From assembly GCA_951406725.2 (NCBI GenBank), contig OX597841.1, positions 20,894,001-20,958,000 on the forward strand: DNA of 64,000 nt, written 5' to 3'. The position numbers and the translations under genes were made by a program. The notes beneath the pieces were generated by a model that saw only the letters and a program-made list of their open reading frames with translations, did no database searches and was not told the origin of the DNA. Of the stretch, positions 38,651 to 61,340 are shown piece by piece. Each line of letters opens with the position of its first letter. Position 1 is the first letter of the stretch. Origin of the DNA: Octopus vulgaris (Eukaryota).

Positions 38651-39645
38651 TCTTAGCTAAATGTAAGTTAACTGATTGATAAAAAGCATATATTTATCCA
38701 AGAGATCACTAGAAGCGCAAAAGTATTCTGGTAATAAAATGTCAAAATATTGCATGTGTACTTGAAAAACAACAAAATATTTATTGATATTTTAGTTAAA
38801 TATAAGTTAACTAATTGATAAACTGCTTATATTTATCCCAGAGATTACTAAAATCTGAAAAGTTTTCAGGTTAGAAAATGTCAAAATATCGCATATGTGT
38901 ACTTGAAAATCAACAAAAAATATAGTGATCTCTTAGTTAACTGATTGGTAAAAAGCTTATACTTATCCAAGAGATTACTAAAATCGCAAAAGTTTTCAGG
39001 TTAGAAAATCTCAAATTATGTGTACTTGAAAAACAACAAAAAATTTAATGATCTCAGCAAAATATGAGTTAACTGATTGATAATAAGCTTATAAAAGTTT
39101 TCAGGTTAGAAAATATTAAAGTATTGCATTACGAAAAAAAAAATTTAGTGATTTCTTAGCTAAATGTAAGTTAACTGATTGATAAAAAGCATATATTTAT
39201 CCAAGAGATCACTAGAATCGCAAAAGTTTTCAGGTTAGAAAACCTCAAATTATGTGTACTTGAAAAACAACAAAAAATTTAATGATCTCAGCAAAATATG
39301 AGTTAACTGATTGATAATAAGCTTATAAAAGTTTTCAGGTTAGAAAATATTAAACTATTGCATTAACAAAAAAAAAATTTAGTGATTTCTTAGCCAAATA
39401 TAAGTTAACTGATTGATAAAAAGCATATATTTATCCAAGAGATCACTAGAATCGCAAAAGTTTTCAGGTTGAAAATTGTCAAACTATGTGTACTTGAAAA
39501 AATACATCAAATTTAGTCATCTCTTTCCTAAATGTAAGTTAACTGATTCATAAAAAGCATATGATTATCCAAGAGATCACTAAAACCTTAAAAGTTTTTA
39601 GGTTATAAAATGTCAAAATATTGCATACGTGTACTTGTAAAACTA

Positions 39646-39984
39646 TAAAAAAATTAAGTGATCTCTTAGTTAACCGATTGACAAAAGGCTTATATTTATC
39701 CAAGAGATCACTAGAAGCGCAAAAGTATTCTGGTAATAAAATGTCAAAAAATTTTGCATGTGTACTTGAAAACCAACAAAATATTTATTGATATTTTAGT
39801 TAAATATAAGTTAACTAATTAACTTATATTTAACTAAAATATCAATAAATATTTCGTTATTTTTCAAGTACACATGCAATATTTTGACATTTTATTACCA
39901 GAATACTTTTGCGCTTCTAGTGATCTCTTGGATAAATATAAGCCTTTTGTCAATCGGTTAACTAAGAGATCACTTAATTTTTTA
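39646..39984. repeat. Long inverted duplication (palindrome, arms about 165-170 bp) inside the AT-rich satellite
   Basis: 39820-39984 is the reverse complement of 39646-39814, e.g. CAAGAGATCACTAGAAGCGCAAAAGTATTCTGG versus CCAGAATACTTTTGCGCTTCTAGTGATCTCTTG. Confidence 0.92.
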
Positions 39985-40445
39985 ATTGATAAACTGCTTA
40001 TATTTATCCCAGAGATTACTAAAATCTGAAATGTTTTCAGGTTAGAAAATGTCAAAATATCGCATATGTGTACTTGAAAATCAACAAAATATATAGTGAT
40101 CTCTTAGTTAACTGATTGATAAAAAGCTTATATTTATCCAAAAGATTACTAAAATCGCAAAAGTTTTCAGGTTAGAAAATCTCAAATTATGTGTACTTGA
40201 AAAATGTCAAAATATTGCATATGTGTACTTGTAAAACAATAAAAAATTTAGTGATCTCTTAGTTAACTGATTGACAAAAGGCTTATATTTATCCAAGAGA
40301 TCACTAGAAGCGCAAAAGTATTCTGGTAATAAAATGTTAAAATATTGCATATGTGTACTTGAAAATCAACAAAATATTTATTGTTATTTTAGTTAAGTAT
40401 AAGTTAACTAAGCTTATATTTATCCGGAAAATCACTAAAATCTGA

Positions 40446-42065
40446 ATTTCAGTGAACCAAAGAGCAAGTATCAAAGCGCAATTTTTACCCTACTAAAGTA
40501 TTAAATTGCGCTTTAAACAATTTAACACTTTAGTAGGGTAAAAATTGCGCTTTGAAACATTTAATACTTTGTAAAAATTTACTTTTACAACACTTTTGTT
40601 TTCCTGTTGTATAGGGCTTTTTTCTTCTTCCTTTGATACTTGCTCTTTGGTTCACTGAAAAATTGCGCATTAAATCATTTAAAACTTTAGTTTCTGTAAA
40701 AATTTATTATTTGCTTTTACAGCGTTTTTCTTTTTCTGTCGTTTACGGCTTTTTCTAGATCCTTCGATACTAACCGTTTGGTTCACGGACATATTGTGCT
40801 TCAAACCGTTTAATGCTCGTTTCTGTAAAAATTTCCTAATTTAATCCTATAAATGTTTTCTTTTTGTTTTTTGCGGCTTTTTTGTACTTCTTTTGATACT
40901 AGCTCTTTGGTTCACTGACTTAATTTTCTTATTTTCTTTCACAACGATTTTGTGTTTTTATGTTGTTTATGGCTGTTTTGTAGTTCCTTCAATACTGGCA
41001 CTTTGGTTCACCGATAAGTTGCTTTTTATGCGCTTTAATAGGTTCAAAACTTTATTTTTTTTAAAAATTTTTTATTTGCTTTTACAGCGGTTTTGCATTT
41101 CTGTTCTTTACGGATTTTTTATCGTTTCTTCGATAAAAAGTTCACTAAGAAATTGCGCTTCAATACGTTTAATACTTTAGTTACTGTAAAAATTTCATAT
41201 TTACTATAGCAACGGTTTTCTGTTTTTCTGTTGTTTACGGCTTTTTTCTACTTGCTTCGATACTATTCACAGAGAAATTACGTTTTAAACCGTTTCTGTA
41301 AACATTTCTTATTTACTGTAAGAACGGTTTTGCTTTCTTTGTAGTTTCTTCCATACTAGCTCTTTTGTTCACTGACAAATTCCTGTTGAAACCTATAGTA
41401 ATTTATTACTGTATACATTTCGTATTAACTTTTACAATCGTTTTCTTTTTTTGTTGTTTACGGTTTGTTTTCTGTAACAAATTTTTATTAACCTTTACAA
41501 CGGTTTTGTGTTTTCTTTTCTTACTTACGGGTTTTTTATTCTTACCTCAAAACTTGCACTTTGTTTCACTGACAAACTGCACTTGAAAAACATTTAATAT
41601 TTTTACTGCACTTTAAAAACATTTAATATTTTTACTGTAAAAATTGCGCTTTAAACCGTTCAATACTTCATTTTCTGTAAAAATTATTTGCTTATACAGT
41701 GGTTTTGTGTTTCTGTAGTTTACTGCTTTTTTCTAATTCCTTCGAAACTAATTATTTGGTTCACTGACAAATTGCGCTTTAAATATTTTAATACTAGATT
41801 CTGTAAAAAATTTTTTTTAACTATAGTAAATAAGAAATTTTTGCAGAATCTAGTATTAAAAGTTGTAAAGCACAATTTCTCAGTGAACCAAAGAATAAAA
41901 AATTAATACAGTAATAAAGTATTATAGGTTTAATGCGGAATTTGTAAGTGAACAAAAGAGCAAGTATGGAAGGAACTAGGAAAAAGCAAAACCGTTTTTA
42001 CAGTAAATAAGAAATTTTTACAGAAACTATAGTATGAAACGGTTTGAAACTCAATTTCTCATTGA
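40446..42065. repeat. Degenerate T-rich tandem repeat (about 120 bp) with local inversions
   Basis: Recurring TTGGTTCACTGA, AATTGCGCTTTAAA, TTTCTGTAAAAATT and GTTTACGGCTTTTT motifs. Inverted copies occur at 40449-40500 and about 41830-42060. Confidence 0.7.
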
Positions 42066-42069
42066 ATAT

Positions 42070-42855
42070 GAAAAGCATCAGTTGTGGCCGTACAAAGGAG
42101 GAAAAAAGTGGTATGATGACACCTTGTTCTCTGGACCAAAAAGTTCTTAATATCCAGCAACTCATCCGACGAACTTCTTGTTGATGTGTGCACTCCAAGT
42201 GAGAGCGTCATCAACAATTACACCCAGATCTCTGATAATGTTAGAGTCTGTATGAGCGGTTCCCCTGAAGGAAGAAAGTATAGCTGTTTTAGTGAGGAGT
42301 TTCTTCTAAAATGCATCAGCTCAAATTTTCCACATTCAGTTGCATTATTTTTCTGTTTGCCCATTGACTCACAGCATATAGATCAGACTGGAGTTGAGTT
42401 CGGTCTGCTTCTTCATTGACGATTTGTCGGAGTTTAGTGTCACCAGCAAATATTTTCACTTTGCAGTAATGTACGACACTATTCGTTTATGTATATTACG
42501 AAGAGTAGCGGACGCAAGACAGTCCGCTGGGGGGACACTGCTGGTGACTTTTGCTGGGCTTGAGTGGACTCCATCAAATACAACATGTGTTGTATTCGCC
42601 AGGAAATTCTTGATCCATTGTAGAACTTTTCCACGGATTCCAACATTTGCCAATTTTGAGAGTAGGATAGTATGGTTTACCCTGTCGAACACTTTACTGA
42701 AGTCAAGATATATGACATCAGAGTTCGAACCTGTTCCCAAGGCTTTGAGTACATCTTCAATGTGGTGTAAGAGATGTGTTAGACAGTCCCTGCCACAGCG
42801 AAAGCCATGCTGATTTGCAGCTAGTAGTTTCTGGGTCTCCAGGAAGTCAGCATTA
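42070..42855 (-). pseudogene. Decayed non-LTR retrotransposon reverse transcriptase fragment (CR1/L2-like clade)
   Basis: Minus-strand translation NQHGFRCGRDCLTHLL...DVIYLDFSKVFDRVNHTILLSKL...GIRGKVLQWIKNFL...VTSSVP. After frameshifts come KIFAGDTKL (degenerate F/YADD motif) and LFSSFVRPQL. Frameshifted and truncated. Confidence 0.88.
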
Positions 42856-44456
42856 TAATTTAATAATACATAATAGTAATTACATTAGATGTGAGGGAAG
42901 TAACTCTCGAAGATTTAGGAGTTGTCTTCCTTCGTAGAGTTACATTGCATATTATAATTAATAATAATATGCCAGGGGAGTAACTCTACAAAGGGAAATA
43001 ATTAAAAAAAAATATCCCAGAGTTACCTCCCTTGAATCTAATTAAGTTACGGTTATGTATTTTTAAATTATAAGATTTAAGGGAAGTAACTCTAGAGAGG
43101 TGGAACATTATCTCCCTTTCGAGAGTTATTCCCCTTGAATATTATAATTTGATAATACATAATAGTAATTTAATTAGATGTAAGGGAAGTAACTCTCGAA
43201 GATTTAGGAGTTGTCTTCCTTCGTAGAGTTACTTACCTTGCATATTATAATTAATAATAATATGCCAGGGGAGTAACTCTAGGAAGGGAAATAATTTTTA
43301 AAAAATATCCCAGAGTTACCTCCCTTCAATCTAATTAAGTTATTGTTATGTATTTTTAAGTTATAAGATTCAAGGGAAGTAACTCTAGAGAGGTAGAACA
43401 TTATCCAGAGTTACTTCCCTTACATGTTATTACGTTACGATTGGGGTTTAGGGTTTGGGGGTTAGGTTTAGGGATAAGGTTGGGGTTAGGATTAAGATTA
43501 GGGTTTGGGTTAGGGTTAGTTATGTCCCTTTCTAGAGTTATTCCCCTTGAATATTATAATTTAATAATACATAATAGTAATTTAATTAGATGTAAGGGAA
43601 GTAACTCTCGAAGATTTAGGAGTTGTCTTCCTTCGTAGAGTTACTTACCTTGCATATTATAATTAATAATAATATGCCAAGGGAGTAACACTAGAAAGGG
43701 AAATAATTTTTTAAAAAAATATCCCAGAGTTACCTCCCTTCAATCTAATAAATTTATTGTTATGTATTTTTAAGTTATAAGATTCAAGGGAAGTAACTCT
43801 AGAGAGGTAGAACATTATCCAGAGTTACTTCCCTTACATGTTATTACGTTACGATTGGGGTTTAGGGTTAGGGGGTTAGGTTTAGGGATAAGGTTGGGGT
43901 TAGGATTTAAGATTAGGGTTTGGGATAGGGTTAGTTATGTCCCTTTCTAGAGTTATTCCCCTTGAATATTATAATTTAATAATACATAATAGTAATTTAA
44001 TTAGATGTAAGGGAAGTAACTCTCGAAGATTTAGGAGTTGTCTTCCTTCGTAGAGTTACTTACCTTGTATATTATAATTAATAATATGCCAGGGGAGTAA
44101 CTCCAGAAAGGGAAATAATTTTTTAAAAATATCCCAGAGTTACCTCCCTTTAATCTAATTAAGTTATTGTTATGTATTTTTAAGTTATATGTTTCAAGGG
44201 AAGTAACTCTAGAGAGGTAGAACATTATCCAGAGTTACTTCCCTTACATGTTATTACGTTACGATTGGGGTTCAGGGTTAGGGGGTTAGGTGTAGGGATA
44301 AGGTTGGGGTTAGGATTTAAGATTAGGGTTTGGGTTAGGGTTAGTTATCTCCCTTTCTAGAGTTATTCCCCTTGAATATTATAATTTAATAATACATAAT
44401 AGTAATTTAATTAGATGTAAGGGAAGTAACTCTCGAAGATTTAGGAGTTGTCTCCC
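42856..44456. repeat. Subtelomere-like tandem repeat: one 289-bp unit, then three ~410-415-bp units each carrying a degenerate TTAGGG tract
   Basis: GATTTAGGAGTTGTC at 42912, 43201, 43613, 44028 and 44438. TTAGGG-variant tracts at about 43441-43520, 43856-43935 and 44266-44345. Confidence 0.9.
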
Positions 44457-44467
44457 TGCAGAGCCAA

Positions 44468-47400
44468 GGCCAGGCCAGGCCAGCAGGCCAGGAGGCCAGG
44501 CCAGGCCAGGCCAGGCCAGGCCAGGCCAGGCAGGCCAGGCGCCAGGCCAGGCCAGGCCAGGCCAGGCCAGGCCAGGCCAGGCCAGGCCAGGCCAGGCCAG
44601 GCCAGGCCAGGCCAGGCCAGGCCAGGGCCAGGCCAGGCCAGGCCAGGCCAGGCCAGGCCAGGCCAGGCCAGGCCAGGCCAGGCCAGGCCAGGCCAGGCCA
44701 GGCCAGCCAGGCCAGGCCAGGCCAGGCCAGGCCAGGCCAGGCCAGGCCAGGCCAGGCCAGGCCAGGCCAGGCCAGGCCAGGCCAGGCCAGGCCAGGCCAG
44801 GCCAGGCCAGGCCAGGCCAGGCCAGGCCAGGCCAGGCCAGGCCAGGCCAGGCCAGGCCAGGCCAGGCCAGGCCAGGCCAGGCCAGGCCAGGCCAGGCCAG
44901 GCCAGGCCAGGCCAGGCCAGGCCAGGCCAGGCCAGGCCAGGCCAGGCCAGGCCAGGCCAGGCCAGGCCAGGCCAGGCCAGGCCAGGCCAGGCCAGGCCAG
45001 GCCAGGCCAGGCCAGGCCAGGCCAGGCCAGGCCAGGCCAGGGCCAGGCCAGGCCAGGCCAGGCCAGGCCAGGCCAGGCCAGGCCAGGCCAGGCCAGGCCA
45101 GGCCAGGCCAGGCCAGGCCAGGCCAGGCCAGGCCAGGCCAGGCCAGGCCAGGCCAGGCCAGGCCAGGCCAGGCCAGGCCAGGCCAGGCCAGGCCAGGCCA
45201 GGCCAGGCCAGGCCAGGCCAGGCCAGGCCAGGCCAGGCCAGGCCAGGCCAGGCCAGGCCAGGCCAGGCCAGGCCAGGCCAGGCCAGGCCAGGCCAGGCCA
45301 GGCCAGGCCAGGCCAGGCCAGGCCAGGCCAGGCCAGGCCAGGCCAGGCCAGGCCAGGCCAGGCCAGGCCAGGCCAGGCCAGGCCAGGCCAGGCCAGGCCA
45401 GGCCAGGCCAGGCCAGGCCAGGCCAGGCCAGGCCAGGCCAGGCCAGGCCAGGCCAGGCCAGGCCAGGCCAGGCCAGGCCAGGCCAGGCCAGGCCAGGCCA
45501 GGCCAGCCAGGCCAGGCCAGGCCAGGCCAGGCCAGGCCAGGCCAGGCCAGGCCAGGCCAGGCCAGGCCAGGCCAGGCCAGGCCAGGCCAGGCCAGGCCAG
45601 GCCAGGCCAGGCCAGGCCAGGCCAGGCCAGGCCAGGCCAGGCCAGGCCAGGCCAGGCCAGGCCAGGCCAGGCCAGGCCAGGCCAGGCCAGGCCAGGCCAG
45701 GCCAGGCCAGGCCAGGCCAGGCCAGGCCAGGCCAGGCCAGGCCAGGCCAGGCCAGGCCAGGCCAGGCCAGGCCAGCCAGGCCAGGCCAGGCCAGGCCAGG
45801 GCCAGGCCAGGCCAGGCCAGGCCAGGCCAGGCCAGGCCAGGCCAGCCAGGCCAGGCCAGGCCAGGCCAGGCCAGGCCAGGCCAGGCCAGGCCAGGCCAGG
45901 GCCAGGCCAGCCAGGCCAGGCCAGGCCAGGCCAGGCCAGGCCAGGCCAGGCCAGGCCAGGCCAGGCCAGGCCAGGCCAGGCCAGGCCAGGCCAGGCCAGG
46001 CCAGGCCAGGCCAGGCCAGGCCAGGCCAGGCCAGGCCAGGCCAGGCCAGGCCAGGCCAGGCCAGGCCAGGCCAGGCCAGGCCAGGCCAGGCCAGGCCAGG
46101 CCAGGCCAGGCCAGGCCAGGCCAGGCCAGGCCAGGCCAGGCCAGGCCAGGCCAGGCCAGGCCAGGCCAGGCCAGGCCAGGCCAGGCCAGGCCAGGCCAGG
46201 CCAGGCCAGGCCAGGCCAGGCCAGGCCAGGCCAGGCCAGGCCAGGCCAGGCCAGGCCAGGCCAGGCCAGGCCAGGCCAGGCCAGGCCAGGCCAGGCCAGG
46301 CCAGGCCAGGCCAGGCCAGGCCAGGCCAGGCCAGGCCAGGCCAGGCCAGGCCAGGCCAGGCCAGGCCAGGCCAGGCCAGGCCAGGCCAGGCCAGGCCAGG
46401 GCCAGGCCAGGCCAGGCCAGGCCAGGCCAGGCCAGGCCAGGCCAGGCCAGGCCAGGCCAGGCCAGGCCAGGCCAGGCCAGGCCAGGCCAGGCCAGGGCCA
46501 GGCCAGGCCAGGCCAGGCCAGGCCAGGCCAGGCCAGGCCAGGCCAGGCCAGGGGCCAGGCCAGGCCAGGCCAGGCCAGGCCAGGCCAGGCCAGGCCAGGC
46601 CAGGCCAGGCCAGGCCAGGCCAGGCCAGGCCAGGCCAGGCCAGGCCAGGCCAGGCCAGGCCAGGCCAGGCCAGGCCAGGCCAGGCCAGGCCAGGCCAGGC
46701 CAGGCCAGGCCAGGCCAGGCCAGGCCAGGCCAGGCCAGGCCAGGCCAGGGCCAGGCCAGGCCAGGCCAGGCCAGGGCCAGGCCAGGCCAGGCCAGGCCAG
46801 GCCAGGCCAGGCCAGGCCAGGCCAGGCCAGGCCAGGCCAGGCCAGGCCAGGCCAGGCCAGGCCAGGCCAGGCCAGGCCAGGCCAGGCCAGGCCAGGCCAG
46901 GCCAGGCCAGGCCAGGCCAGGCCAGGCCAGGCCAGGCCAGGCCAGGCCAGGCCAGGCCAGGCCAGGCCAGGCCAGGCCAGGCCAGGCCAGGCCAGGCCAG
47001 GCCAGGCCAGGCCAGGCCAGGCCAGGCCAGGCCAGGCCAGGCCAGGCCAGGCCAGGCCAGGCCAGGCCAGGCCAGGCCAGGCCAGGCCAGGCCAGGCCAG
47101 GCCAGGCCAGGCCAGGCCAGGCCAGGCCAGGCCAGGCCAGGCCAGGCCAGGCCAGGCCAGGCCAGGCCAGGCCAGGCCAGGCCAGGCCAGGCCAGGCCAG
47201 GCCAGGCCAGGCCAGGCCAGGCCAGGCCAGGCCAGGCCAGGCCAGGCCAGGCCAGGCCAGGCCAGGCCAGGCCAGGCCAGGCCAGGCCAGGCCAGGCCAG
47301 GCCAGGCCAGGCCAGGCCAGGCCAGGCCAGGCCAGGCCAGGCCAGGCCAGCCAGGCCAGGCCAGGCCAGGCCAGGCCAGGCCAGGCCAGGCCAGGCCAGG

Positions 47401-50400
47401 CCAGGCCAGGCCAGGGCCAGGCCAGGCCAGGCCAGGCCAGGCCAGGCCAGGCCAGGCCAGGCCAGGCCAGGCCAGGCCAGGCCAGGCCAGGCCAGGCCAG
47501 GCCAGGCCAGGCCAGGCCAGGCCAGGCCAGGCCAGGCCAGGCCAGGCCAGGCCAGGCCAGGCCAGCCAGGCCAGGCCAGGCCAGGCCAGGCCAGGCCAGG
47601 CCAGGCCAGGCCAGGCCAGGCCAGGCCAGGCCAGGCCAGGCCAGGCCAGGCCAGGCCAGGCCAGGCCAGGCCAGGCCAGGCCAGGCCAGGCCAGGGCCAG
47701 GCCAGGCCAGGCCAGGCCAGGCCAGGCCAGGCCAGGCCAGGCCAGGCCAGGCCAGGCCAGGCCAGGCCAGGCCAGGCCAGGCCAGGCCAGGCCAGGCCAG
47801 GCCAGGCCAGGCCAGGCCAGGCCAGGCCAGGCCAGGCCAGGCCAGGCCAGGCCAGGCCAGGCCAGGCCAGGCCAGGCCAGGCCAGGCCAGGCCAGGCCAG
47901 GCCAGGCCAGGCCAGGCCAGGCCAGGCCAGGCCAGGCCAGGCCAGGCCAGGCCAGGCCAGGCCAGGCCAGGCCAGGCCAGGCCAGGCCAGGCCAGGCCAG
48001 GCCAGGCCAGGCCAGGCCAGGCCAGGCCAGGCCAGGCCAGGCCAGGCCAGGCCAGGCCAGGCCAGGCCAGGCCAGGCCAGGCCAGGCCAGGCCAGGCCAG
48101 GCCAGGCCAGGCCAGGCCAGGCCAGGCCAGGCCAGGCCAGGCCAGGCCAGGCCAGGCCAGGCCAGGCCAGGCCAGGCCAGGCCAGGCCAGGCCAGGCCAG
48201 GCCAGGCCAGGCCAGGCCAGGCCAGGCCAGGGCCAGGCCAGGCCAGGCCAGGCCAGGCCAGGCCAGGCCAGGCCAGGCCAGGCCAGGCCAGGCCAGGCCA
48301 GGCCAGGCCAGGCCAGGCCAGGCCAGGCCAGGCCAGGCCAGGCCAGGCCAGGCCAGGCCAGGCCAGGCCAGGCCAGGCCAGGCCAGGCCAGGCCAGGCCA
48401 GGCCAGGCCAGGCCAGGCCAGGCCAGGCCAGGCCAGGCCAGGCCAGGCCAGGCCAGGCCAGGCCAGGCCAGGCCAGGCCAGGCCAGGCCAGGCCAGGCCA
48501 GGCCAGGCCAGGCCAGGCCAGGCCAGGCCAGGCCAGGCCAGGCCAGGCCAGGCCAGGCCAGGCCAGGCCAGGCCAGGCCAGGGCCAGGCCAGGCCAGGCC
48601 AGGCCAGGCCAGGCCAGGCCAGGCCCAGGCCAGGCCAGGCCAGGCCAGGCCAGGCCAGGCCAGGCCAGGCCAGGCCAGGCCAGGCCAGGCCAGGCCAGGC
48701 CAGGCCAGGCCAGGCCAGGCCAGGCCAGGCCAGGCCAGGCCAGGCCAGGGCCAGGCCAGGCCAGGCCAGGCCAGGCCAGGCCAGGCCAGGCCAGGCCAGG
48801 CCAGGCCAGGCCAGGCCAGGCCAGGCCAGGCCAGGCCAGGCCAGGCCAGGCCAGGCCAGGCCAGGCCAGGCCAGGCCAGGCCAGGCCAGGCCAGGCCAGG
48901 CCAGGCCAGGCCAGGCCAGGCCAGGCCAGGCCAGGCCAGGCCAGGCCAGGCCAGGCCAGGCCAGGCCAGGCCAGGCCAGGCCAGGCCAGGCCAGGCCAGG
49001 CCAGGCCAGGCCAGGCCAGGCCAGGCCAGGCCAGGCCAGGCCAGGCCAGGCCAGGCCAGGCCAGGCCAGGCCAGGCCAGGCCAGGCCAGGCCAGGCCAGG
49101 CCAGGCCAGGCCAGGCCAGGCCAGGCCAGGCCAGGCCAGGCCAGGCCAGGCCAGGCCAGGCCAGGCCAGGCCAGGCCAGGCCAGGCCAGGCCAGGCCAGG
49201 GCCAGGCCAGGCCAGGCCAGGCCAGGCCAGGCCAGGCCAGGGCCAGGCCAGGCCAGGCCAGGCCAGGCCAGGCCAGGCCAGGCCAGGCCAGGCCAGGCCA
49301 GGCCAGGCCAGGCCAGGCCAGGCCAGGCCAGGCCAGGCCAGGCCAGGCCAGGCCAGGCCAGGCCAGGCCAGGCCAGGCCAGGCCAGGCCAGGCCAGGCCA
49401 GGCCAGGCCAGGCCAGGCCAGGCCAGGCCAGGCCAGGCCAGGCCAGGCCAGGCCAGGCCAGGCCAGGCCAGGCCAGGCCAGGCCAGGCCAGGCCAGGCCA
49501 GGCCAGGCCAGGCCAGGCCAGGCCAGGCCAGGCCAGGCCAGGCCAGGCCAGGCCAGGCCAGGCCAGGCCAGGCCAGGCCAGGCCAGGCCAGGCCAGGCCA
49601 GGCCAGGCCAGGCCAGGCCAGGCCAGGCCAGGCCAGGCCAGGCCAGGCCAGGGCCAGGCCCAGGCCAGGCCAGGCCAGGCCAGGCCAGGCCAGGCCAGGC
49701 CAGGGCCAGGCCAGGCCAGGCCAGGCCAGGCCAGGCCAGGCCAGGCCAGGCCAGGCCAGGCCAGGCCAGGCCAGGCCAGGCCAGGCCAGGCCAGGCCAGG
49801 CCAGGCCAGGCCAGGCCAGGCCAGGCCAGGCCAGGCCAGGCCAGGCCAGGCCAGGCCAGGCCAGGCCAGGCCAGGCCAGGCCAGGCCAGGCCAGGCCAGG
49901 CCAGGCCAGGCCAGGCCAGGCCAGGCCAGGCCAGGCCAGGCCAGGCCAGGCCAGGCCAGGCCAGGCCAGGCCAGGCCAGGCCAGGCCAGGCCAGGCCAGG
50001 CCAGGCCAGGCCAGGCCAGGCCAGGCCAGGCCAGGCCAGGCCAGGCCAGGCCAGGCCAGGCCAGGCCAGGCCAGGCCAGGCCAGGCCAGGCCAGGCCAGG
50101 CCAGGCCAGGCCAGGCCAGGCCAGGCCAGGCCAGGCCAGGCCAGGCCAGGCCAGGCCAGGCCAGGCCAGGCCAGGCCAGGCCAGGCCAGGCCAGGCCAGG
50201 CCAGGCCAGGCCAGGCCAGGCCAGGCCAGGCCAGGCCAGGCCAGGCCAGGCCAGGCCAGGCCAGGCCAGGCCAGGCCAGGCCAGGCCAGGCCAGGCCAGG
50301 CCAGGCCAGGCCAGGCCAGGCCAGGCCAGGCCAGGCCAGGCCAGGCCAGGCCAGGCCAGGCCAGGCCAGGCCAGGCCAGGCCAGGCCAGGCCAGGCCAGG

Positions 50401-51894
50401 CCAGGCCAGGCCAGGCCAGGCCAGGGCCAGGCCAGGCCAGGCCAGGCCAGCCAGGCCAGGCCAGGCCAGGCCAGGCCAGGCCAGGCCAGGCCAGGCCAGG
50501 CCAGGCCAGGCCAGGCCAGGCCAGGCCAGGCCAGGCCAGGCCAGGCCAGGCCAGGCCAGGCCAGGCCAGGCCAGGCCAGGCCAGGCCAGGCCAGGCCAGG
50601 CCAGGCCAGGCCAGGCCAGGCCAGGCCAGGCCAGGCCAGGCCAGGCCAGGCCAGGCCAGGCCAGGCCAGGCCAGGCCAGGCCAGGCCAGGCCAGGCCAGG
50701 CCAGGCCAGGCCAGGCCAGGCCAGGCCAGGCCAGGCCAGGCCAGGCCAGGCCAGGCCAGGCCAGGCCAGGCCAGGCCAGGCCAGGCCAGGCCAGGCCAGG
50801 CCAGGCCAGGCCAGGCCAGGCCAGGCCAGGCCAGGCCAGGCCAGGCCAGGCCAGGCCAGGCCAGGCCAGGCCAGGCCAGGCCAGGCCAGGCCAGGGCCAG
50901 CCAGGCCAGGCCAGGCCAGGCCAGGCCAGGCCAGGCCAGGCCAGGCCAGGCCAGGCCAGGCCAGGCCAGGCCAGGCCAGGCCAGGCCAGGCCAGGCCAGG
51001 CCAGGCCAGGCCAGGCCAGGCCAGGCCAGGCCAGGCCAGGCCAGGCCAGGCCAGGCCAGGCCAGGCCAGGCCAGGCCAGGCCAGGCCAGGCCAGGCCAGG
51101 CCAGGCCAGGCCAGGCCAGGCCAGGCCAGGCCAGGCCAGGCCAGGCCAGGCCAGGCCAGGCCAGGCCAGGCCAGGCCAGGCCAGGCCAGGCCAGGCCAGG
51201 CCAGGCCAGCCAGGCCAGGCCAGGCCAGGCCAGGCCAGGCCAGGCCAGGCCAGGCCAGGCCAGGCCAGGCCAGGCCAGGCCAGGCCAGGCCAGGCCAGGC
51301 CAGGCCAGGCCAGGCCAGGCCAGGCCAGGCCAGGCCAGGCCAGGCCAGGCCAGGCCAGGCCAGGCCAGGCCAGGCCAGGCCAGGCCAGGCCAGGCCAGGC
51401 CAGGCCAGGCCAGGCCAGGCCAGGCCAGGCCAGGCCAGGCCAGGCCAGGCCAGGCCAGGCCAGGCCAGGCCAGGCCAGGCCAGGCCAGGCCAGGCCAGGC
51501 CAGGCCAGGCCAGGCCAGGCCAGGCCAGGCCAGGCCAGGCCAGGCCAGGCCAGGCCAGGCCAGGCCAGGCCAGGCCAGGCCAGGCCAGGCCAGGGGCCAG
51601 GCCAGGCCAGCCAGGCCAGGCCAGGCCAGGCCAGGCCAGGCCAGGCCAGGCCAGGCCAGGCCAGGCCAGGCCAGGCCAGGCCAGGCCAGGCCAGGCCAGG
51701 CCAGGCCAGGCCAGGCCAGGCCAGGCCAGGCCAGGCCAGGCCAGGCCAGGGCCAGGGCCAGGCCAGGCCAGGCCAGGCCAGGCCAGGCCAGGCCAGGCCA
51801 GGGCCAGGCCAGGCCAGGGCCAGGCCAGGCCAGGCCAGGCCAGGCCAGGCCAGGCCAGGCCAGGCCAGGCCAGGCCAGGCCAGGCCAGGCCAGG
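44468..51894. repeat. (GGCCA)n pentamer array of about 7.4 kb with scattered single-base indels; probably mis-basecalled (TTAGGG)n telomere
   Basis: The repeat is seen directly. The telomere interpretation is an inference from context and known nanopore telomere miscalls. Confidence 0.9.
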
Positions 51895-52324
51895 GGGGGG
51901 GGGGTGGAAGGCCAGGCAGAAGAAGAAGGTTAGGGAAGGGGATAGGGGGGGGGGGAAGAAGAAGAAGAAGGAAGAAGAAGAAGAAGGAAGGGAAGGGAAG
52001 AAGGAAGGGGGAAGAAGGTTAGGGTTAGGAAGGGGAAGAAGAAGAAGAAGAAGGGTTAGAAGAAGAAGAAGAAGAAGAAGAAGAAGAAGAAGAAGAAGAA
52101 GAAGAAGAAGAAGAAGAAGAAGAAGAAGAAGAAGAAGAAGAAGAAGAAGAAGAAGAAGAAGAAGAAGAAGAAGAAGAAGAAGAAGAAGAAGAAGAAGAAG
52201 AAGAAGAAGAAGAAGAAGAAGAAGAAGAAGGTTAGAAGAAGAAGAAGAAGAAGAAGAAGAAGAAGAAGAAGAAGAAGAAGAAGAAGAAGAAGAAGAAGAA
52301 GAAGAAGAAGAAGAAGAAGAAGAA
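51895..52324. repeat. G/A-rich noisy tract and (AAG)n interrupted by GGTTAG units
   Basis: GGTTAG(GG) at 51928, 52017-52029, 52053 and 52230, embedded in AAG repeats. Confidence 0.9.
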
Positions 52325-52391
52325 GGTTAGGGTTAGGGTTAGGGTTAGGGTTAGGGTTAGGGTTAGGGTTAGGGTTAGGGTTAGGGTTAGG
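52325..52391 (+). repeat. Canonical telomeric repeat (TTAGGG), about 11 copies, G-rich strand pointing into the gap
   Basis: Perfect TTAGGG units up to the first N. Confidence 0.97.
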
Positions 52392-52491
52392 NNNNNNNNN
52401 NNNNNNNNNNNNNNNNNNNNNNNNNNNNNNNNNNNNNNNNNNNNNNNNNNNNNNNNNNNNNNNNNNNNNNNNNNNNNNNNNNNNNNNNNNN
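52392..52491. other. Scaffold gap (100 N)
   Basis: Exactly 100 N, a conventional unknown-size gap. Confidence 0.99.
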
Positions 52492-52544
52492 TTGGCATAC
52501 CATGTCCTCTTATAAGGCATTGGTCAGCCCAGGGCTGATCTCCT

Positions 52545-52795
52545 TATCTCTCTCTCTCTATCTACCTTTCTATCTATCTATCTCTCTATCCGTCTATCCA
52601 CCTTTTAATCTATCTGCATATTTTATCTGTCTGTCTGTATGTCTATCTATCTGCCTGTCTGTCTGTCTGTCTATCTATCTATCTGTCTATCTATCTGTCT
52701 ATCTATCTGTCTATCTATCTGTCTATCTATCTATCTGTCTGTCTATCTATCTGTCTTTATCTGTCTATCTATCTATCTATCTATCTGTCTATCTG

Positions 52796-52834
<39 letters not shown>

Positions 52835-52953
52835 GTCTATCTATCTATCTGTCTATCTGTCTATCTATCTATCTATCTGTCTATCTGTCTATCTGTCTAT
52901 TTGTCTGTCTGTCTGTCTGTCTACCTCAGTTTATCCAATCTGCCTGTCTATCT

Positions 52954-52996
<43 letters not shown>
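52545..52996. repeat. (TCTA/TCTG)n and (CT)n microsatellites
   Basis: Seen directly. Confidence 0.95.
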
Positions 52997-52998
<2 letters not shown>

Positions 52999-53377
52999 TC
53001 CCTCCCCTCTAAAAACTAAGTGTGGGCAGAGGAAGCAAAGGGTACCCAGCAGCCGTTAAAGAAAGAGAGTGGGGTACCCTTTTCTCCTTCCAGAGTGAAA
53101 GCATCAGATTTTATTGGAAACTGGAAAACTACCATTGCATCATCGTCATCATCATCACCACTATTACCACCAAGCTCATCATTCTCTCCCTCCATCATTC
53201 CCTTCCTCCCACTATCACTCTAGTAACTCACCGAAAGAGAGAAGGTGAAAGAGAAAAAAAGGAGGGAGACGGACGGACAGACAGCCAGACAGCCAGAGAG
53301 AGGCTGAGGTTCATTGTAGAACGGAAAAATCAATACATTCCATTTTGCGTATTCACCTTGTTCGTTCTTCGTAGCAC

Positions 53378-53379
53378 TG

Positions 53380-53413
<34 letters not shown>

Positions 53414-53770
53414 GGATAATAATAATAATGATAAAAATAATAATAAGGATAATAATAATAATGATAAAAATAATAATTACAATAATAATAATAATGATAT
53501 TAATAATAATAATAATGATAATAATAAGGATAATAATAATAATACAATAATAATAATTACAATAATAATAATGATAATAATAATAATAATGATATTAATA
53601 ATAATAATAATAATAATGATAATAATGATAATAATAATACTAATAATGATAATAATATGATAGTAATAATAATGATAATAATAATAATAATAATGATAAT
53701 AATAATAATGATAATAATAATTATAATAATGATAATAATGATAATAATAATAATAATAATAATAATGAAA

Positions 53771-53804
<34 letters not shown>

Positions 53805-53837
53805 TGATAATAGAAATAAAAATAATAATGATAATAA

Positions 53838-53893
<56 letters not shown>

Positions 53894-53955
53894 CTAATAA
53901 TAATAATGATAATAATGATATCAATAATAATAATAATGATGATAATAATAATAAT
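53378..53955. repeat. Imperfect (AAT/GAT)n microsatellite
   Basis: Seen directly. Confidence 0.95.
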
Positions 53956-54089
53956 GGTGGAGGTGGGGGTGGTAAGGTCATGGTGGAGTGTGTATGTGTG
54001 TGTAATAGTGTGTAATCCCCCATGTAGTGTGTGTGGTGGTGGTCGTGGTGGAGTGGAGGGTGAGAGTCATCTTAGTAATACAGACACAT

Positions 54090-54390
54090 GAGCATACTCA
54101 CACATGCATACTAACAAACGTGCGTGCATATTTATGTGTACATTTGTGTATGTGTGTGTGTATATATAATATATACATGTGTGTGTATATATATATATAC
54201 ACGTGCATGTTGAAATGTATGTTTGTCGTGTGTGTGTGTATATATACATATATATATATATATACACACACACATGCACACATACATACACTCACACATA
54301 CCTATATATATATATATATAAATATTTATATAGCTATACGCACACATGCATGTATGTACATATATACGCATGCATACAAATGTATGTGTG

Positions 54391-54436
<46 letters not shown>

Positions 54437-54485
54437 ATGCTTGTGTGCATGCGTGTGTGTGTATATATATGTGTGTGTGTGTACG
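54090..54485. repeat. Compound (TA)n/(TG)n/(CA)n microsatellite
   Basis: Seen directly. Confidence 0.9.
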
Positions 54486-54771
54486 TAACCGTTCTTAGTT
54501 GACTACCATATTCGTCTAATGTACAGGAATGTTGTCTGTGCGTCCCAAGCAGAAGCAAGATGCATTTCTAATGTTTTGCTCCTCTTCCGACCCCAAACAC
54601 ACACCAACCCCAAAACACACAGACACACACACAAATGCACATATACACCCAGTATCTCTAACATGCCTGCACTCACTCTATTATTATTTGTGCATGTACA
54701 TGCATGTGTCTGTGTTTGTGTATGTGTATCATTGTAAGTTTGTGTGTTTTATATATATATCTATATATATA

Positions 54772-55161
54772 TCTATATATATAAAGCTGAAGTTGTCTGT
54801 GTGTGGCAGGTTTGGTAGCCTTCAACTAACACTATCTCCTCTGAGACCTTGCGGCACAAGTTGACCAAAATTGAGTGTATGATAGAAGAAGGCTGGCTCT
54901 TCATTCCGTAGAAGACAAAATTCAAATTGGACCATGTTAATGCCAAAAATTATTTACATCAAAAAGGTGCTATTTTCTATGAAAATCCTGATTTCTTAAT
55001 GATTTTTTGACTGCTGTGTCGCCATTTTCCGGTGTATTTCAACCAGAAAAATGTTCACTTAAAGAGAATAACAAGCTACATAATGCAAAATTCTTACTTT
55101 TCAAAAATTCCAATTCTAAAGGATTGAAACAAACCCAAGCAACGCTAGACGATACTGCTAG
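54772..55161 (+). mobile_element. Probable non-autonomous Helitron (about 390 bp)
   Basis: Starts A|TCTATATATATAAAGCTGAAG and ends AAACCCAAGCAACGCTAGACGATACTGCTAG|T. This gives 5' TC, 3' CTAG, an A/T target and a decayed subterminal hairpin. No second copy in the window to confirm the ends. Confidence 0.55.
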
Positions 55162-55197
55162 TATGTATATATATATGTGTGTGTATATATATATATA

Positions 55198-55356
55198 ATG
55201 CTGGTGTGTTTACATCCCCATAACTTAGTGGTTTGGCAAAAGAGACCAATAGAATAATTACTAGGCTTACAAAGAATAAGTCCTGAGGTTGATTTGCTCA
55301 ACTAAAGACTGTACTCCAGCATGGCCGCAATCAAATGACTGAAAGAAGTAAAAGAG
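55198..55356 (+). mobile_element. SINE 3' half (same family as 61407-61792)
   Basis: ATGCTGGTGTGTTTACATCCCC...AAAGAATAAGTCCTGAGGTTGATTTGC...CATGGCCGCAATCAAATGACTGAAAG. Confidence 0.85.
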
Positions 55357-55433
55357 TATGTCTGTATATATACACTCGAATATATACATACACATAGACA
55401 CACACACACACACACATATATATGTGTGTGTGC

Positions 55434-55615
55434 AGGTGGCACGTAAAAAGCACCCACTACACTCTCGGAGTGGTTGGCGTTAGGAAGGGCATCCAGCTGT
55501 AGAAACATTGCCAGATCAGACTGGAGCCTGGTGCAGCCTTCTGGCTTCCCAGATCCCCAGTCGAACCGTCCAACCCATGCTGGCATGGAGAACGGACGTT
55601 AAACGAGGATGATGA
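55434..55615 (+). mobile_element. 3' end of a second retroposon family (SINE or RTE-LINE 3' UTR) with a (GAT)n tail
   Basis: GGTGGCACGTAAAAAGCACCCACTACACTCTCGGAGTGGTTGGCGTTAGGAAGGGCATCCAGCTGTAGAAAC...GGACGTTAAACGAGGATGATGA. Homologous copies lie at 56098-56290 and 57938-58040 on the minus strand. Confidence 0.82.
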
Positions 55616-55651
55616 TATATATATACACACACACACACATATTTATATGTA

Positions 55652-55706
<55 letters not shown>

Positions 55707-55716
55707 CTATACATAC

Positions 55717-55750
<34 letters not shown>

Positions 55751-55774
55751 GAACATTATAAATATTGGATCTTC

Positions 55775-55895
55775 TGTGTCTGTTTTGGCAGGGTTTTTAC
55801 AGCTGGATGCTCTTGCCAATGCCACCTGCTTTATGGGGTGGGCTGGATGCTTTTTAAGTGGCACCTGCACTGCCAGGGTCGCCAAGTATCTTGCA
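55775..55895 (-). mobile_element. Diverged fragment of the same retroposon 3' end
   Basis: GGCAGGGTTTTTACAGCTGGATGCTCTTGCCAATGCC resembles GGCAGAGTTTCTACAGCTGGATGCCCTTCCTAACGCC at 56204. Confidence 0.6.
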
Positions 55896-56097
55896 ACACA
55901 CACACATACACACACACAAAAATCTTTTGAATGGGGAGGGGTCATTGGAGGAGGTGATCTTGTGTCAGATGATGAAAGGTTATAGTGAGACTGAGAGACA
56001 GAAACAGGTGCCTTGCTGTAGAGGAGGTACGAGTTTAACTGGTTAGAGAGAGAGAGGACAAGTAGATAGGCACACACGCACATACAAGGATTATATT

Positions 56098-56539
56098 ATC
56101 ATCATCATCATCGTTTAACGTCCGCTTTCCATGCTAGCATGGGTTAGACGATTGACTGAGGTCTGGTGAACCAGATGTCTGCACGAGGCTTCAATCTTGA
56201 TCTGGCAGAGTTTCTACAGCTGGATGCCCTTCCTAACGCCAACCACTCAGAGAATGTAGTGGGTGCTTTTACTTGCCACCGGCACGGGGGCCAGTCAAGC
56301 GGTACTGACAACGACCTCGCTCGAATCTTTTATACATGCCACCGGCACAGGTGCCAGTAAGGCGACGCTGGTAATGATCACACTCGAATGATGCCTTTTA
56401 CGTGCCATCGGCACGGAGGCCAGATAGCCACTCTGGCAACGATCAGGCTCGGATGGTAGTCTAATACCCTACTAGCACGGGGCTCAAGTGCCAGTAAGGC
56501 AACGCTGGTAACGATCACGCTCGAATGGTACCTTTTAAG

Positions 56540-56545
<6 letters not shown>
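56098..56545 (-). mobile_element. Retroposon 3' end with (GAT)n tail and internal ~60-bp tandem subrepeats
   Basis: ATCATCATCATCATCGTTTAACGTCCGC...CAGCTGGATGCCCTTCCTAACGCC, followed by repeated G(G/T)AACGATCACGCTCG(G/A)ATGGT-like units. Confidence 0.82.
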
Positions 56546-56576
<31 letters not shown>

Positions 56577-56830
56577 GAGAGAGAGAGAGGATGTTAATTC
56601 TATGAGCACCTTTGTCTTATAGCTGACTCATTAGACTCCAGTGGTTGTAGACGTTGGAGTCTTACGACTCGTCTATAAGACTAAGTGCTTTATAGATACA
56701 AAACCATTAGTCATTCTATGACTGGACATATAATTAACTTTCTATAAATACGTTACTGCTGTGGCTTTTAGAGTTTGTTTCTTTTTCGGATTTATGATCC
56801 ACTGAAAATACATAGGAACGGACGCAAAGT

Positions 56831-57770
56831 CATCATCATCATCATTGTTTGACCGTGGTTGAGACAATGGAATTTACCATGCTACGCCAGACTTCACGGT
56901 CCATCATGGAATTACGGAGGTCCTGTTGCTGGATGCCTGTATCCCTGGAGATTACATCAGGGTAGGAGAGTTTGCGCCCTCTGGCATTGCGAGCAGATGG
57001 CTTCCAGAGGAGAAGAGCAGAAATTACCTCTTTTTCAGCTCTACAACAATGTCCAGCAAACTGGACTCTCCTACCTTTCACAAGAGATGACACAGGTGGT
57101 AGTTTCCCATATATTTGTACTTTGGTTGGATGACGCTTCCTCGAGAGATTTTGAGCTCTCGTAAGGAGGCGAGTGTAGGTTCCATCCAACTGCCTCTCAA
57201 GCTTCTTTGATAACGTCCAGGTTTCTGAGCCATAGAGTAGAATTGGTTCGACTGGTATCGTGAGCAGATGGCTTCCAGAGGAGAAGAGTAGAAATTACCT
57301 CTTTTTCAGCTCTACAACAATGTCCAGCAAACTGGACTCTCCTACCTTTCACAAGAGATGACACAGGTGGTAGTTTCCCATATATTTGCATTTTGATTGG
57401 ATGGCGCTTCCACAAGAGATTTTGAGCTCTCATAAGGAGGCGAGTGTAGGTTCCATCCAACTGCCTCTCAAGCTTCTTTGATAACGTCCAGGTTTCTGAG
57501 CCATAGAGTAGAATTGGTTCGACTGGTATCGTGAGCAGATGGCTTCCAGAGGAGAAGAGTAGAAATTGCCTTGTTTTCAGCTCTACAACAATGTCCAGCA
57601 AACTGGACTCCCTACCTTTCACAAGAGATGACACAGGTGGTAGTTTCCCATATATTTGCATTTTGGTTGGATGACGCTTCCACGAGAGATTTTGAGCTCT
57701 CATAAGGAGGCGAGTGTAGGTTCCATCCAACCGCCTCTCAAGCTTCTTTGATAATGTCCAGGTTTCTGAG
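56831..57770 (-). mobile_element. RTE-clade LINE 3' end with a tandem triplication of a 271-bp segment
   Basis: Peptide VEPILLYGSETWTLSKKLERQLDGTYTRLLMRAQNLSW...QFAGHC...DREVWRSMV then a stop and a (GAT)n tail. CTACAACAATGTCCAGCAAA occurs at 57041, 57312 and 57583. Confidence 0.9.
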
Positions 57771-57937
57771 CAAAGTGGTTGAGTTCGTTTTGGGCATCAG
57801 GCTTCCCAGAGGCAAAGTGGCTGATCATGTCCTGAGTGTTGGGCCACATAGGGACAATGACCAAGACCTTTGGCTGAGAAGATGACCCATCAAACCGAAC
57901 AGAATCAGCTGTGGCACATATCATTGTCACACAAATT

Positions 57938-58220
57938 GGCTGCACCAGGCTCCAGTCTGATCTGGCAGAGTTTTTACAGCTGGATGCCCTTCCTAACGCC
58001 AACGACTCCGAGAGTGTAGTGGGTGTTTTTACGTGCCAAGCAGCACAGAGGCCGCGGGGACCTGGCATCAACCACATTTCTGATGGTGCTTTTTACATGC
58101 CGCCAGCACGGGGACCACAACTACAGTTTCCATTTGATTGTGGTTTGATTTGATTTTGATTTTAATGCACTTGACTCAATAGGTCTCCTCAAGCTCGGCA
58201 TGTTGCCCTACGATCCAAGA
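57938..58220 (-). mobile_element. Retroposon 3' UTR-type fragment (family of 55434-55615)
   Basis: GGCTGCACCAGGCTCCAGTCTGATCTGGCAGAGTTTTTACAGCTGGATGCCCTTCCTAACGCC. Confidence 0.78.
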
Positions 58221-58224
58221 TACT

Positions 58225-58440
58225 TTTTGAGTGGGCCTCTTCCTCTCTTGCCACTGACCATTCCGAGCATGATGTCCTTCTCCAGGGATTCTCTCCGCAT
58301 AATATGACCAAAATATGCCACTCTATGCTTGGTGATCCTAGCTTCTAGCGACATTTTTGACCTTATCTGCTTAAGAACTTCTCCATTGGTGAGCCTCGCT
58401 GTCCATGGAATCCGCAAAAGTCTTCTCCAACACCAAAGAC
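58225..58440 (-). pseudogene. RTE/BovB-like LINE ORF C-terminal fragment
   Basis: LRIPWTARLTNGEVLKQI...YFGHIMRRESLEKDIMLGMVSGKRGRG is typical of the RTE C-terminal region. Confidence 0.85.
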
Positions 58441-58461
58441 ATATATATAGATTGGCTTAAA

Positions 58462-58566
58462 TGTAGATAGGCAGATAAACAGATTGAGAGAGATAGATAG
58501 ACAAATAGATAGATAGACAGACAAATAGATAGATATACAGACAAATAGATAGATAGACAGACAGAC

Positions 58567-58637
<71 letters not shown>

Positions 58638-58875
58638 CAGATAGATAGATAGATAGACAGACAGACACAGAGATAGATAGATGGGAAGAATGATGGATGG
58701 ATTGATAGCTAACTGAATAGATTGACAGACAGATGTATAGACAGAAAGGCTGATAGACATCTACCGATACTTAGATCTAATAAGTCACATCAATAAGTAG
58801 TGATAGATAGATAGATAGATAAGTAGAGAGAGAGAGAGAGAGAAAGAAAGAGTGTGTGTGTGTGTGTGTGTGCGC
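58462..58875. repeat. (GATA/GACA)n, (GA)n and (TG)n microsatellites
   Basis: Seen directly. Confidence 0.92.
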
Positions 58876-59019
58876 CAGCAAAATAAATATCATGTTGGGT
58901 GTGGGTGAATTAATTAGCTGGCTGGCCACAGTGACATACAGACAGACTGTGTTAGCTGTTGAATATAAAGCAGAGAAGCTGAAGGGCAGAACAAGTAGAC
59001 TGGCACATTGATTTATGGG

Positions 59020-59044
59020 AATATATATATAGACACACAGATAT

Positions 59045-59081
<37 letters not shown>

Positions 59082-59205
59082 TGTATACTATATACACACA
59101 TACTCACACTTGTGGCTATATATACATTTATGTATGTAAGCATGTGAGTGTATACATGTGTGTATACATATGTACATAGATTCATATATTTATACATATA
59201 TATAT

Positions 59206-59236
<31 letters not shown>

Positions 59237-59417
59237 CATATATATATACATATATATATACATATATATACATATATATATGTATATATATATATGTATA
59301 TATATGTATATATATGTATATATATATGTATATATATATATACATATATATATATACATATATATATACATATATATATACATATATATAAACATATATA
59401 TATATATACATATATAT

Positions 59418-59488
<71 letters not shown>

Positions 59489-59572
59489 TATATACATATA
59501 TATATATATATATGCATATATATATACATATATATATACATACATACATTTATATGTATATATTGGTTTGTA

Positions 59573-59620: not shown

Positions 59621-59621
<1 letters not shown>

Positions 59622-61290: not shown

Positions 61291-61340
<50 letters not shown>

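What the first reader, a model, noticed from the sequence alone, without database searches (positions are those of the whole stretch)
44468..52391. 7.4 kb of (GGCCA)n plus (AAG)n is probably a hidden ~8-kb telomere mis-basecalled by nanopore sequencing
Seen: the array is preceded by repeats carrying degenerate TTAGGG. It contains sporadic CCAGGG hexamers, degrades into G/A noise and (AAG)n with intact GGTTAG units interspersed, and ends in perfect (TTAGGG)n at a contig end. Established: nanopore basecallers miscall the C-rich strand (CCCTAA)n as CTTCTT- and CCCTGG/TGGCC-like repeats, whose reverse complements are AAGAAG and CCAGGG/GGCCA. Inference: the whole tract is a telomere read from the C strand, at least ~8 kb long. 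If GGCCA is real, it would be an unusual pure GC-rich pentamer array placed directly before the telomere.
Basis: partly seen in the sequence, partly recalled or inferred. Interest (0 to 1): 0.8.

Follow-up and report, generated by a model that had tools for sequence, protein, structure and literature searches.

The report
Ordinary telomere miscalled by nanopore sequencing
The 7.4-kb run of GGCCA repeats followed by AAG repeats is most likely an ordinary chromosome end (TTAGGG repeats) garbled by a published nanopore reading error, so it likely marks an assembly flaw and not new biology.

Summary
In detail: (GGCCA)n at 44467-51894, G/A noise and (AAG)n to 52324 with five GGTTAG islands, 11 perfect TTAGGG units, then a 100-N gap. 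On the minus strand, from the tip inward, this reads (CCCTAA)n, (CTT)n, (CCTGG)n: the true C-strand repeat plus both published C-strand miscalls, with no G-strand miscall (TTAAAA). The array body has 0 substitutions and 38 homopolymer-length slips in 7.3 kb, unlike the other arrays in the window. The last subtelomeric unit is exact for 104 bases, then garbled over about 14 bases that are identical in four upstream copies, including TT read as CC. None of 115 public contigs and reads laid on the junction enters the GGCCA side, but none shown carries the predicted TTAGGG junction either, and raw reads were too few (2 and 0), so the decisive test is open. Two additions: the tract may be nearer 9.4 kb than 8 kb if each pentamer stands for a hexamer, and 11.5 kb of unrelated sequence follows the gap, which points to a scaffold misjoin. 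Verdict: known artefact, low interest.

The parts
42824..44467 (+). Subtelomeric tandem unit of about 410 bp: a first copy without the telomere-like patch, three full copies and a fifth copy cut off by the array
   Evidence: TRF period 410, 3.3 copies, 96% matches; alignment of five copies; a multi-copy family in public contigs of runs X1 and X4
43434..43519 (+). Degenerate TTAGGG patch in unit 2
43846..43934 (+). Degenerate TTAGGG patch in unit 3
44266..44344 (+). Degenerate TTAGGG patch in unit 4
44454..44467 (+). Garbled junction: end of the fifth unit, differing at several places from four identical upstream copies, with the unit's GTTA appearing as GCCA; inferred point of telomere addition
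   Evidence: no public record covers 44461-44495
44467..51894 (+). (GGCCA)n, about 1,480 units; (CCTGG)n on the minus strand; inferred miscall of (CCCTAA)n
   Evidence: PMC10769321 passages
51893..52059 (+). Transition noise: G runs of 12 and 11, GGAAG/AAG mixture, four GGTTAG islands
51955..52324 (+). (AAG)n; (CTT)n on the minus strand; inferred miscall of (CCCTAA)n, with a GGTTAG island at 52230
   Evidence: PMC9414165
52325..52391 (+). 11 perfect TTAGGG units, correctly called telomere at the contig end
52392..52491 (.). 100-N scaffold gap; inferred misjoin distal to a chromosome end
   Evidence: no sequence continuity across the gap

Best explanation
The tract from 44462 to 52391 is most likely one ordinary (TTAGGG)n telomere at a chromosome end, likely taken from nanopore data read on the C-rich strand, whose basecaller likely wrote most CCCTAA units as CTT or CCTGG. 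Entering at the tip, the read is correct for 11 units, drifts into (CTT)n with occasional correct units, passes about 170 bases of noise, locks into (CCTGG)n for 7.4 kb, and recovers about 14 bases into the subtelomeric unit. The similar current profiles of these repeats are the published cause. The assembler likely kept the miscalled tail because short reads cannot map to a repeat that does not exist and so cannot polish it (inferred). The telomere likely joins the 410-bp unit at the unit's own GTTA, which is in register with GGTTAG (inferred). The scaffolder likely attached an unrelated contig beyond the chromosome end (inferred). Shown: the sequence anatomy, orientation, error spectrum and junction garbling. 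Inferred: platform, strand of origin, true letters, terminal position.
For: (1) Minus-strand order CCCTAA, CTT, CCTGG with TTAAAA absent from the tract; the C-strand miscalls are CTTCTT and CCCTGG, and 69.5% of C-strand reads had over 90% miscalled repeats (PMC9414165). (2) The pentamer form is used as a telomere pattern for nanopore reads: TGGCCTGGCCTGGCC, and CCTGG among C-strand patterns (PMC10769321); miscalls between 6-mers and 5-mers are documented for telomere-like repeats. (3) Every T between 44462 and 52391 but two lies in a GGTTAG unit; the two others are in the noisy transition. (4) 0 substitutions and 38 G- or C-run length slips in 7,349 bases, against 2,056 substitutions and 45 indels in 32,557 bases of the 34-bp satellite, 51 and 2 in the (ATA)n array, 28 and 3 in the (TCTA)n array. 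(5) The fifth unit matches the fourth without a difference over 44350-44453, then breaks down in a 24-base stretch that is identical in 4 of 4 upstream copies. (6) 0 of 103 X1 contigs, 0 of 10 X4 contigs and 0 of 2 X11 reads cover 44461-44495; one X4 contig continues at 44457 with the intact unit's letters. (7) Subtelomere-like context: stacked tandem arrays and G-strand-oriented degenerate TTAGGG patches.
Against: No record with TTAGGG at the junction is among the 10 loose ends shown (3 were not shown); raw Illumina depth was 2 reads in X11 and none in X12, so these are no test; the runs may be other individuals, their platform is not on record for X1 and X4, and the tool drops human-like records, which may include telomeric ones. 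The window's sequencing platform is not known from any call. The dominant unit is the pentamer, while the parts of PMC9414165 that I read name the hexamer CCCTGG, which is only 25 of about 1,470 units here. A homopolymer-only error spectrum would also arise from an unpolished nanopore read of a real, young GGCCA array. Short real (GGCCA)n microsatellites exist in other organisms (20 loci). The 11.5 kb beyond the gap is not what a chromosome end should have.
Confidence: 0.85

Rival explanations
1. The same miscall, but of a long interstitial (TTAGGG)n array, for example at an old fusion site; the contig broke in the repeat and the scaffold order is right.
For: 11,509 bases follow the 100-N gap. 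A read can also start inside a long internal array after shearing.
Against: The far side shows no telomeric repeats (0 TTAGGG, 1 CCCTAA), no mirrored subtelomere (0 shared 16-mers on the same strand, 1 on the other) and a different make-up (20.5% against 2.5% microsatellite). The near side has a subtelomere-like series of arrays, and the correctly called units are all perfect, with none of the decay seen in the upstream patches.
Confidence: 0.08
2. (GGCCA)n and (AAG)n are real DNA: a very young GC-rich pentamer satellite inserted between subtelomere and a short TTAGGG telomere.
For: The array is 98% pure over 7.4 kb; perfect runs of 12-22 GGCCA units occur in 20 metagenome loci; the pentamer differs from the hexamer miscall named in PMC9414165; the direct read test was too shallow to exclude it.
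Against: It needs two unrelated repeats, both published C-strand miscalls and both in the C-strand orientation, to sit by chance beside TTAGGG; it does not explain the garbled last 14 bases of the subtelomeric unit; none of 115 records laid enters the array; the natural GGCCA runs found are 60-110 bases long, mostly flanked by substitution variants, and none adjoins a telomeric array (short contigs could not hold a 7-kb array, so this is context only).
Confidence: 0.04
3. The tract is miscalled, but the true proximal repeat is the pentamer (TTAGG)n, of which GGCCA is the unit-for-unit TT-to-CC miscall, with (TTAGGG)n only at the tip: a mixed telomere.
For: GGTTA with TT read as CC gives GGCCA exactly, and the same change is visible in the subtelomeric unit; 98% of units are five bases long.
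Against: Human (CCCTAA)n alone yields the CCTGG/TGGCC pentamer pattern (PMC10769321); the correctly called end is pure hexamer; the upstream patches are hexamer-based; the two adjacent islands at 52017-52028 are six bases apart.
Confidence: 0.03

Closest known systems
Strand-specific nanopore repeat-calling errors at telomeres (PMC9414165)
   Same: (CCCTAA)n written as (CTTCTT)n and CCCTGG-like repeats; true and false repeats co-occur in one read; seen in several TTAGGG animals; C strand worst affected
   Different: Here the main unit is the pentamer CCTGG, with CCCTGG at about 1.7% of units; it is seen in an assembled scaffold and not in raw reads; no opposite-strand or HiFi control was available
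TeloNP and read-filter patterns of nanopore Telomere Profiling (PMC10769321)
   Same: TGGCCTGGCCTGGCC and CCTGG are treated as C-strand telomere miscalls of Guppy; these are the window's array read on the minus strand
   Different: Human tagged telomeres with known ends; here the end is not tagged and the basecaller is unknown
Telomere-associated subtelomeric tandem repeats with degenerate TTAGGG (general knowledge, recalled)
   Same: Tandem units holding decayed telomeric hexamers in G-strand orientation directly proximal to the terminal repeat
   Different: The 410-bp unit was not compared with any named family
Natural (GGCCA)n microsatellites in metagenome contigs (L001-L020)
   Same: Same pentamer
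   Different: 60-110 bases, mostly flanked by substitution variants, no telomeric array or (AAG)n beside them

Membership tests
Nanopore telomere repeat-calling artefact | The false repeats are among the published miscalls of the telomeric unit | tested here: met
   CTT and CCTGG/CCCTGG on the minus strand against PMC9414165 and PMC10769321
Nanopore telomere repeat-calling artefact | Orientation fits one strand: C-strand miscalls only, no TTAAAA | tested here: met
   AAG and GGCCA on the plus strand beside TTAGGG; no TTAAAA in the tract
Nanopore telomere repeat-calling artefact | True telomeric units co-occur with the false repeats | tested here: met
   Five GGTTAG islands and 11 terminal units
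Nanopore telomere repeat-calling artefact | The false repeat is absent, and TTAGGG present, in an orthogonal platform at the same site | tested here: inconclusive
   0 of 115 records cover the GGCCA side, but no TTAGGG junction was shown and raw Illumina depth was 2 and 0 reads
Nanopore telomere repeat-calling artefact | The sequence derives from nanopore reads; opposite-strand reads disagree; re-basecalling restores CCCTAA | not testable with these tools
   No raw signal or source reads available; no whole genome held
Canonical (TTAGGG)n telomere | G-rich strand runs 5' to 3' toward the end, distal to subtelomeric repeats | tested here: met
Canonical (TTAGGG)n telomere | Lies at the physical end of the chromosome | tested here: inconclusive
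   Contig end, but 11.5 kb of unrelated sequence follows a 100-N gap
Real simple-sequence satellite | Present in accurate reads of the species and joined to its flank | tested here: inconclusive
   No record enters the array, but only about 30 bases of its irregular start were offered and raw depth was minimal
Real simple-sequence satellite | Units diverge by substitution, as other arrays of the genome do | tested here: not met
   0 substitutions in 7,349 bases against substitution-dominated arrays in the same window; a very young array could also lack them

The most novel reading that the evidence does not exclude
The 7.4-kb (GGCCA)n array is real DNA that has replaced the proximal telomere of this chromosome end, leaving only (AAG)n and a short TTAGGG cap: a nearly pure GC-rich pentamer satellite at a telomere, of a kind I found no paper on.
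Probability: 0.04. Interest if true: 0.65.

Novelty: already known. Interest (0 to 1): 0.1.

Why it matters
If the best reading holds, it matters only for assembly curation: telomere finders that look for TTAGGG would see 67 bases where there are about 8-9 kb, repeat catalogues would list a satellite that does not exist, gene callers may report two false open frames of about 2,500 codons, and the contig beyond the gap is probably misplaced. The miscall itself has been in print since 2022. If GGCCA were real, it would be a surprising telomere architecture and worth a study.

Tried and rejected
No whole genome is held, so other chromosome ends could not be checked for the same pattern or for the G-strand miscall. 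The single read-laying run used a 150-base junction stretch and 4 of the 22 listed runs; raw Illumina runs were read at about 3 in 100 and gave 2 and 0 reads, no test. The metagenome scan found no second case of GGCCA beside telomeric repeats in 20 of 20 loci. A protein-coding reading is rejected: the two 2,500-codon frames are the automatic result of a stop-free pentamer. Indels in the 327-bp array and the 34-bp satellite were checked as an independent sign of nanopore origin: 3 single-base indels next to A runs in the former, 14 of 45 at homopolymers in the latter; not informative. A Fisher test used 39 slips, one of which came from my cut at 44546; the right count is 38 and I do not rely on the test. 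Earlier findings of the scan: three look-ups, nothing relevant. Eight paper searches gave no paper, among the listings returned, on (GGCCA)n in an assembled genome or as a natural telomeric satellite; passages of 10.1101/2024.02.26.582005, PMC13170970 and PMC11305138 held the letters only in primers or other repeats, and PMC12871981 does not name these motifs. Current profiles could not be simulated, as no pore model is on hand.

Full report
Observation. Tandem Repeats Finder gives a 5-bp array at 44467-51894 (1482.6 copies, 98% matches), a 3-bp GAA array at 51955-52325 and 11.2 perfect copies of the telomeric hexamer at 52325-52391, followed by 100 N at 52392-52491. Split into units, the array holds 1,436 GGCCA, 23 GGGCCA, 11 GCCA, 2 GGGGCCA, 2 GGCCCA and four irregular units in its first 80 bases. 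There is no T between 44462 and 51903. GGTTAG islands lie at 51928, 52017, 52023, 52054 and 52230. GGCCAGGCCA does not occur elsewhere in the window.

Context. Positions 1-32690 are a 34-bp satellite; smaller arrays of 118, about 140 and 327 bp follow, then a reverse-transcriptase fragment at 42456-42884 (RVT_1, E 1.4e-8) and a 410-bp tandem unit. Three copies of that unit carry a roughly 75-base patch of decayed TTAGGG in the same orientation as the terminal repeat. This is a subtelomere-like series. Beyond the gap lie 11,509 bases with 0 TTAGGG, 1 CCCTAA, 20.5% microsatellite (2.5% in positions 1-44460) and almost no 16-mer shared with the left contig (0 on the same strand, 1 on the other). 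The tract therefore ends a contig inside a scaffold.

What the literature says. PMC9414165 (main text parts 1-3 of 6 read, plus passages of two supplementary files; its supplementary figures were not seen) reports that nanopore basecallers write (TTAGGG)n as (TTAAAA)n and (CCCTAA)n as (CTTCTT)n and (CCCTGG)n, strand-specifically, in human, chicken, mouse and zebrafish data; that 69.5% of C-strand reads had over 90% of repeats miscalled; that HiFi reads lack these repeats; that 6-mers can be miscalled as 5-mers; and that similar current profiles are the possible cause. PMC10769321 (passages) filters telomeric reads with TGGCCTGGCCTGGCC and lists CCTGG among the C-strand patterns, which is this array on the minus strand. 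PMC12455769 (one passage) confirms such miscalls in a plant, and 10.64898/2025.12.10.693405 (one passage) says they are typical of the older R9 chemistry.

Internal tests. First, orientation. On the minus strand, from the gap inward, the order is (CCCTAA)11, (CTT)n with correct units scattered in it, C-run noise, (CCTGG)n with occasional CCCTGG, then subtelomere. Both foreign repeats are C-strand miscalls in the right orientation, and the G-strand miscall TTAAAA is absent from the tract. Second, error spectrum. The body of the array (44546-51894) has 0 substitutions and 38 slips, all changes in the length of a G or C run. Other arrays of the window vary mainly by substitution: 2,056 substitutions and 45 indels in the 34-bp satellite, 51 and 2 in (ATA)n, 28 and 3 in (TCTA)n. 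This fits an unpolished nanopore stretch, but it would fit a real and very young array read by nanopore equally, so it is not decisive. Third, the junction. The fifth copy of the 410-bp unit matches the fourth without a difference from 44350 to 44453 and then breaks down within a 24-base stretch that is identical in all four upstream copies; among the changes the unit's GTTA appears as GCCA. The TT-to-CC change that turns GGTTAG into GGCCAG has thus reached into sequence whose true letters are known from its neighbours. A real insertion of a satellite would be expected to give a clean break. It also suggests (inference) that the telomere joins the unit at this GTTA, in register with the telomeric repeat.

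External test. A search with 39800-44460 listed 22 runs, 10 holding part of the stretch. I laid four of them on 44346-44495: contigs of X1 and X4 and raw Illumina reads of X11 and X12. 103, 10, 2 and 0 records were laid. Depth is present up to the bin 44456-44460 and is zero over 44461-44495 in all four. At 44457 one X4 contig goes on with the intact unit's letters and one X1 contig with eight other letters. No record carries the window's junction, which agrees with an artefact. The test is weak, though: none of the 10 loose ends shown (3 not shown) is telomeric, the raw runs were read at about 3 in 100, the unit is a multi-copy family, the individuals may differ, the platforms of X1 and X4 are not on record, and human-like records are silently dropped, which may remove TTAGGG-bearing ones. 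A scan of metagenome contigs for 12 perfect GGCCA units gave 20 loci; their runs are 60-110 bases, mostly flanked by substitution variants, and none lies beside a telomeric array or (AAG)n. Short natural GGCCA microsatellites exist, but they look different; short contigs could not show a 7-kb array in any case.

Mechanism and length. Most likely a C-strand nanopore read entered at the chromosome tip, was called correctly for 11 units, then as CTT, then as CCTGG, and recovered about 14 bases into the subtelomere; the assembly kept the tail, and a scaffolder added an unrelated contig behind a 100-N gap. The tract is 7,930 bases as called and 9,379 if each of the 1,480 pentamer-type units stands for one hexamer; PMC10769321 found Guppy lengths in good agreement with peak counts, so the true value is not settled. 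Platform, strand of origin, true letters and terminal position are inferred, not shown.

Rivals. An interstitial telomeric array with the same miscall (0.08) is allowed by the sequence beyond the gap but finds no mirror subtelomere or repeats there. A real GGCCA satellite (0.04) needs two known miscall motifs in the right orientation by chance and leaves the garbled junction unexplained. A true (TTAGG)n proximal tract (0.03) fits the five-base period but is not needed, since human hexamer telomeres give the same pentamer pattern.

Verdict. It is an instance of a published artefact over an ordinary telomere, useful for curating this assembly and of little biological interest. Eight paper searches listed no paper on such an array in an assembled genome; the library lacks most subscription papers, so this says little about novelty.

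Noticed in passing
window 52392-64000: A 100-N gap and 11.5 kb of microsatellite-rich sequence lie distal to the presumed chromosome end; probable scaffold misjoin.
   Followed up: partly
window 1-32690: At least 32.7 kb of a 34-bp satellite with strong G and T skew; short inverted blocks of the same unit recur at about 33091-35306 in both orientations.
   Followed up: partly
window 42824-44467, 33481-34053 and 32804-32929: The 410-bp unit is built from inverted copies of a 12-base motif (window 44422-44433) that also occurs in the 118-bp and 66-bp arrays 10 kb upstream; public contigs show a large, varied family of it. It may be a palindromic mobile or satellite element.
   Followed up: partly
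window 42824-43112 against 43113-44349: The first copy of the unit lacks the degenerate TTAGGG patch that the next three carry, as if an older telomere addition had been captured and then amplified in tandem.
   Followed up: no
window 42456-42884 (-): Reverse-transcriptase fragment (Pfam RVT_1, E 1.4e-8) of a decayed retroelement directly proximal to the 410-bp units.
   Followed up: partly
window 36074-38495: AT-rich 327-bp tandem array, 7.4 copies, 99% alike, within a family of related 112-234-bp units (35318-40335).
   Followed up: no
window 44314-51933 (+) and 44379-51929 (-): The stop-free pentamer gives two spurious open frames of about 2,500 codons that gene callers could annotate.
   Followed up: yes
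window 56991-57771: 271-bp tandem triplication, 96% alike, in the contig beyond the gap.
   Followed up: no
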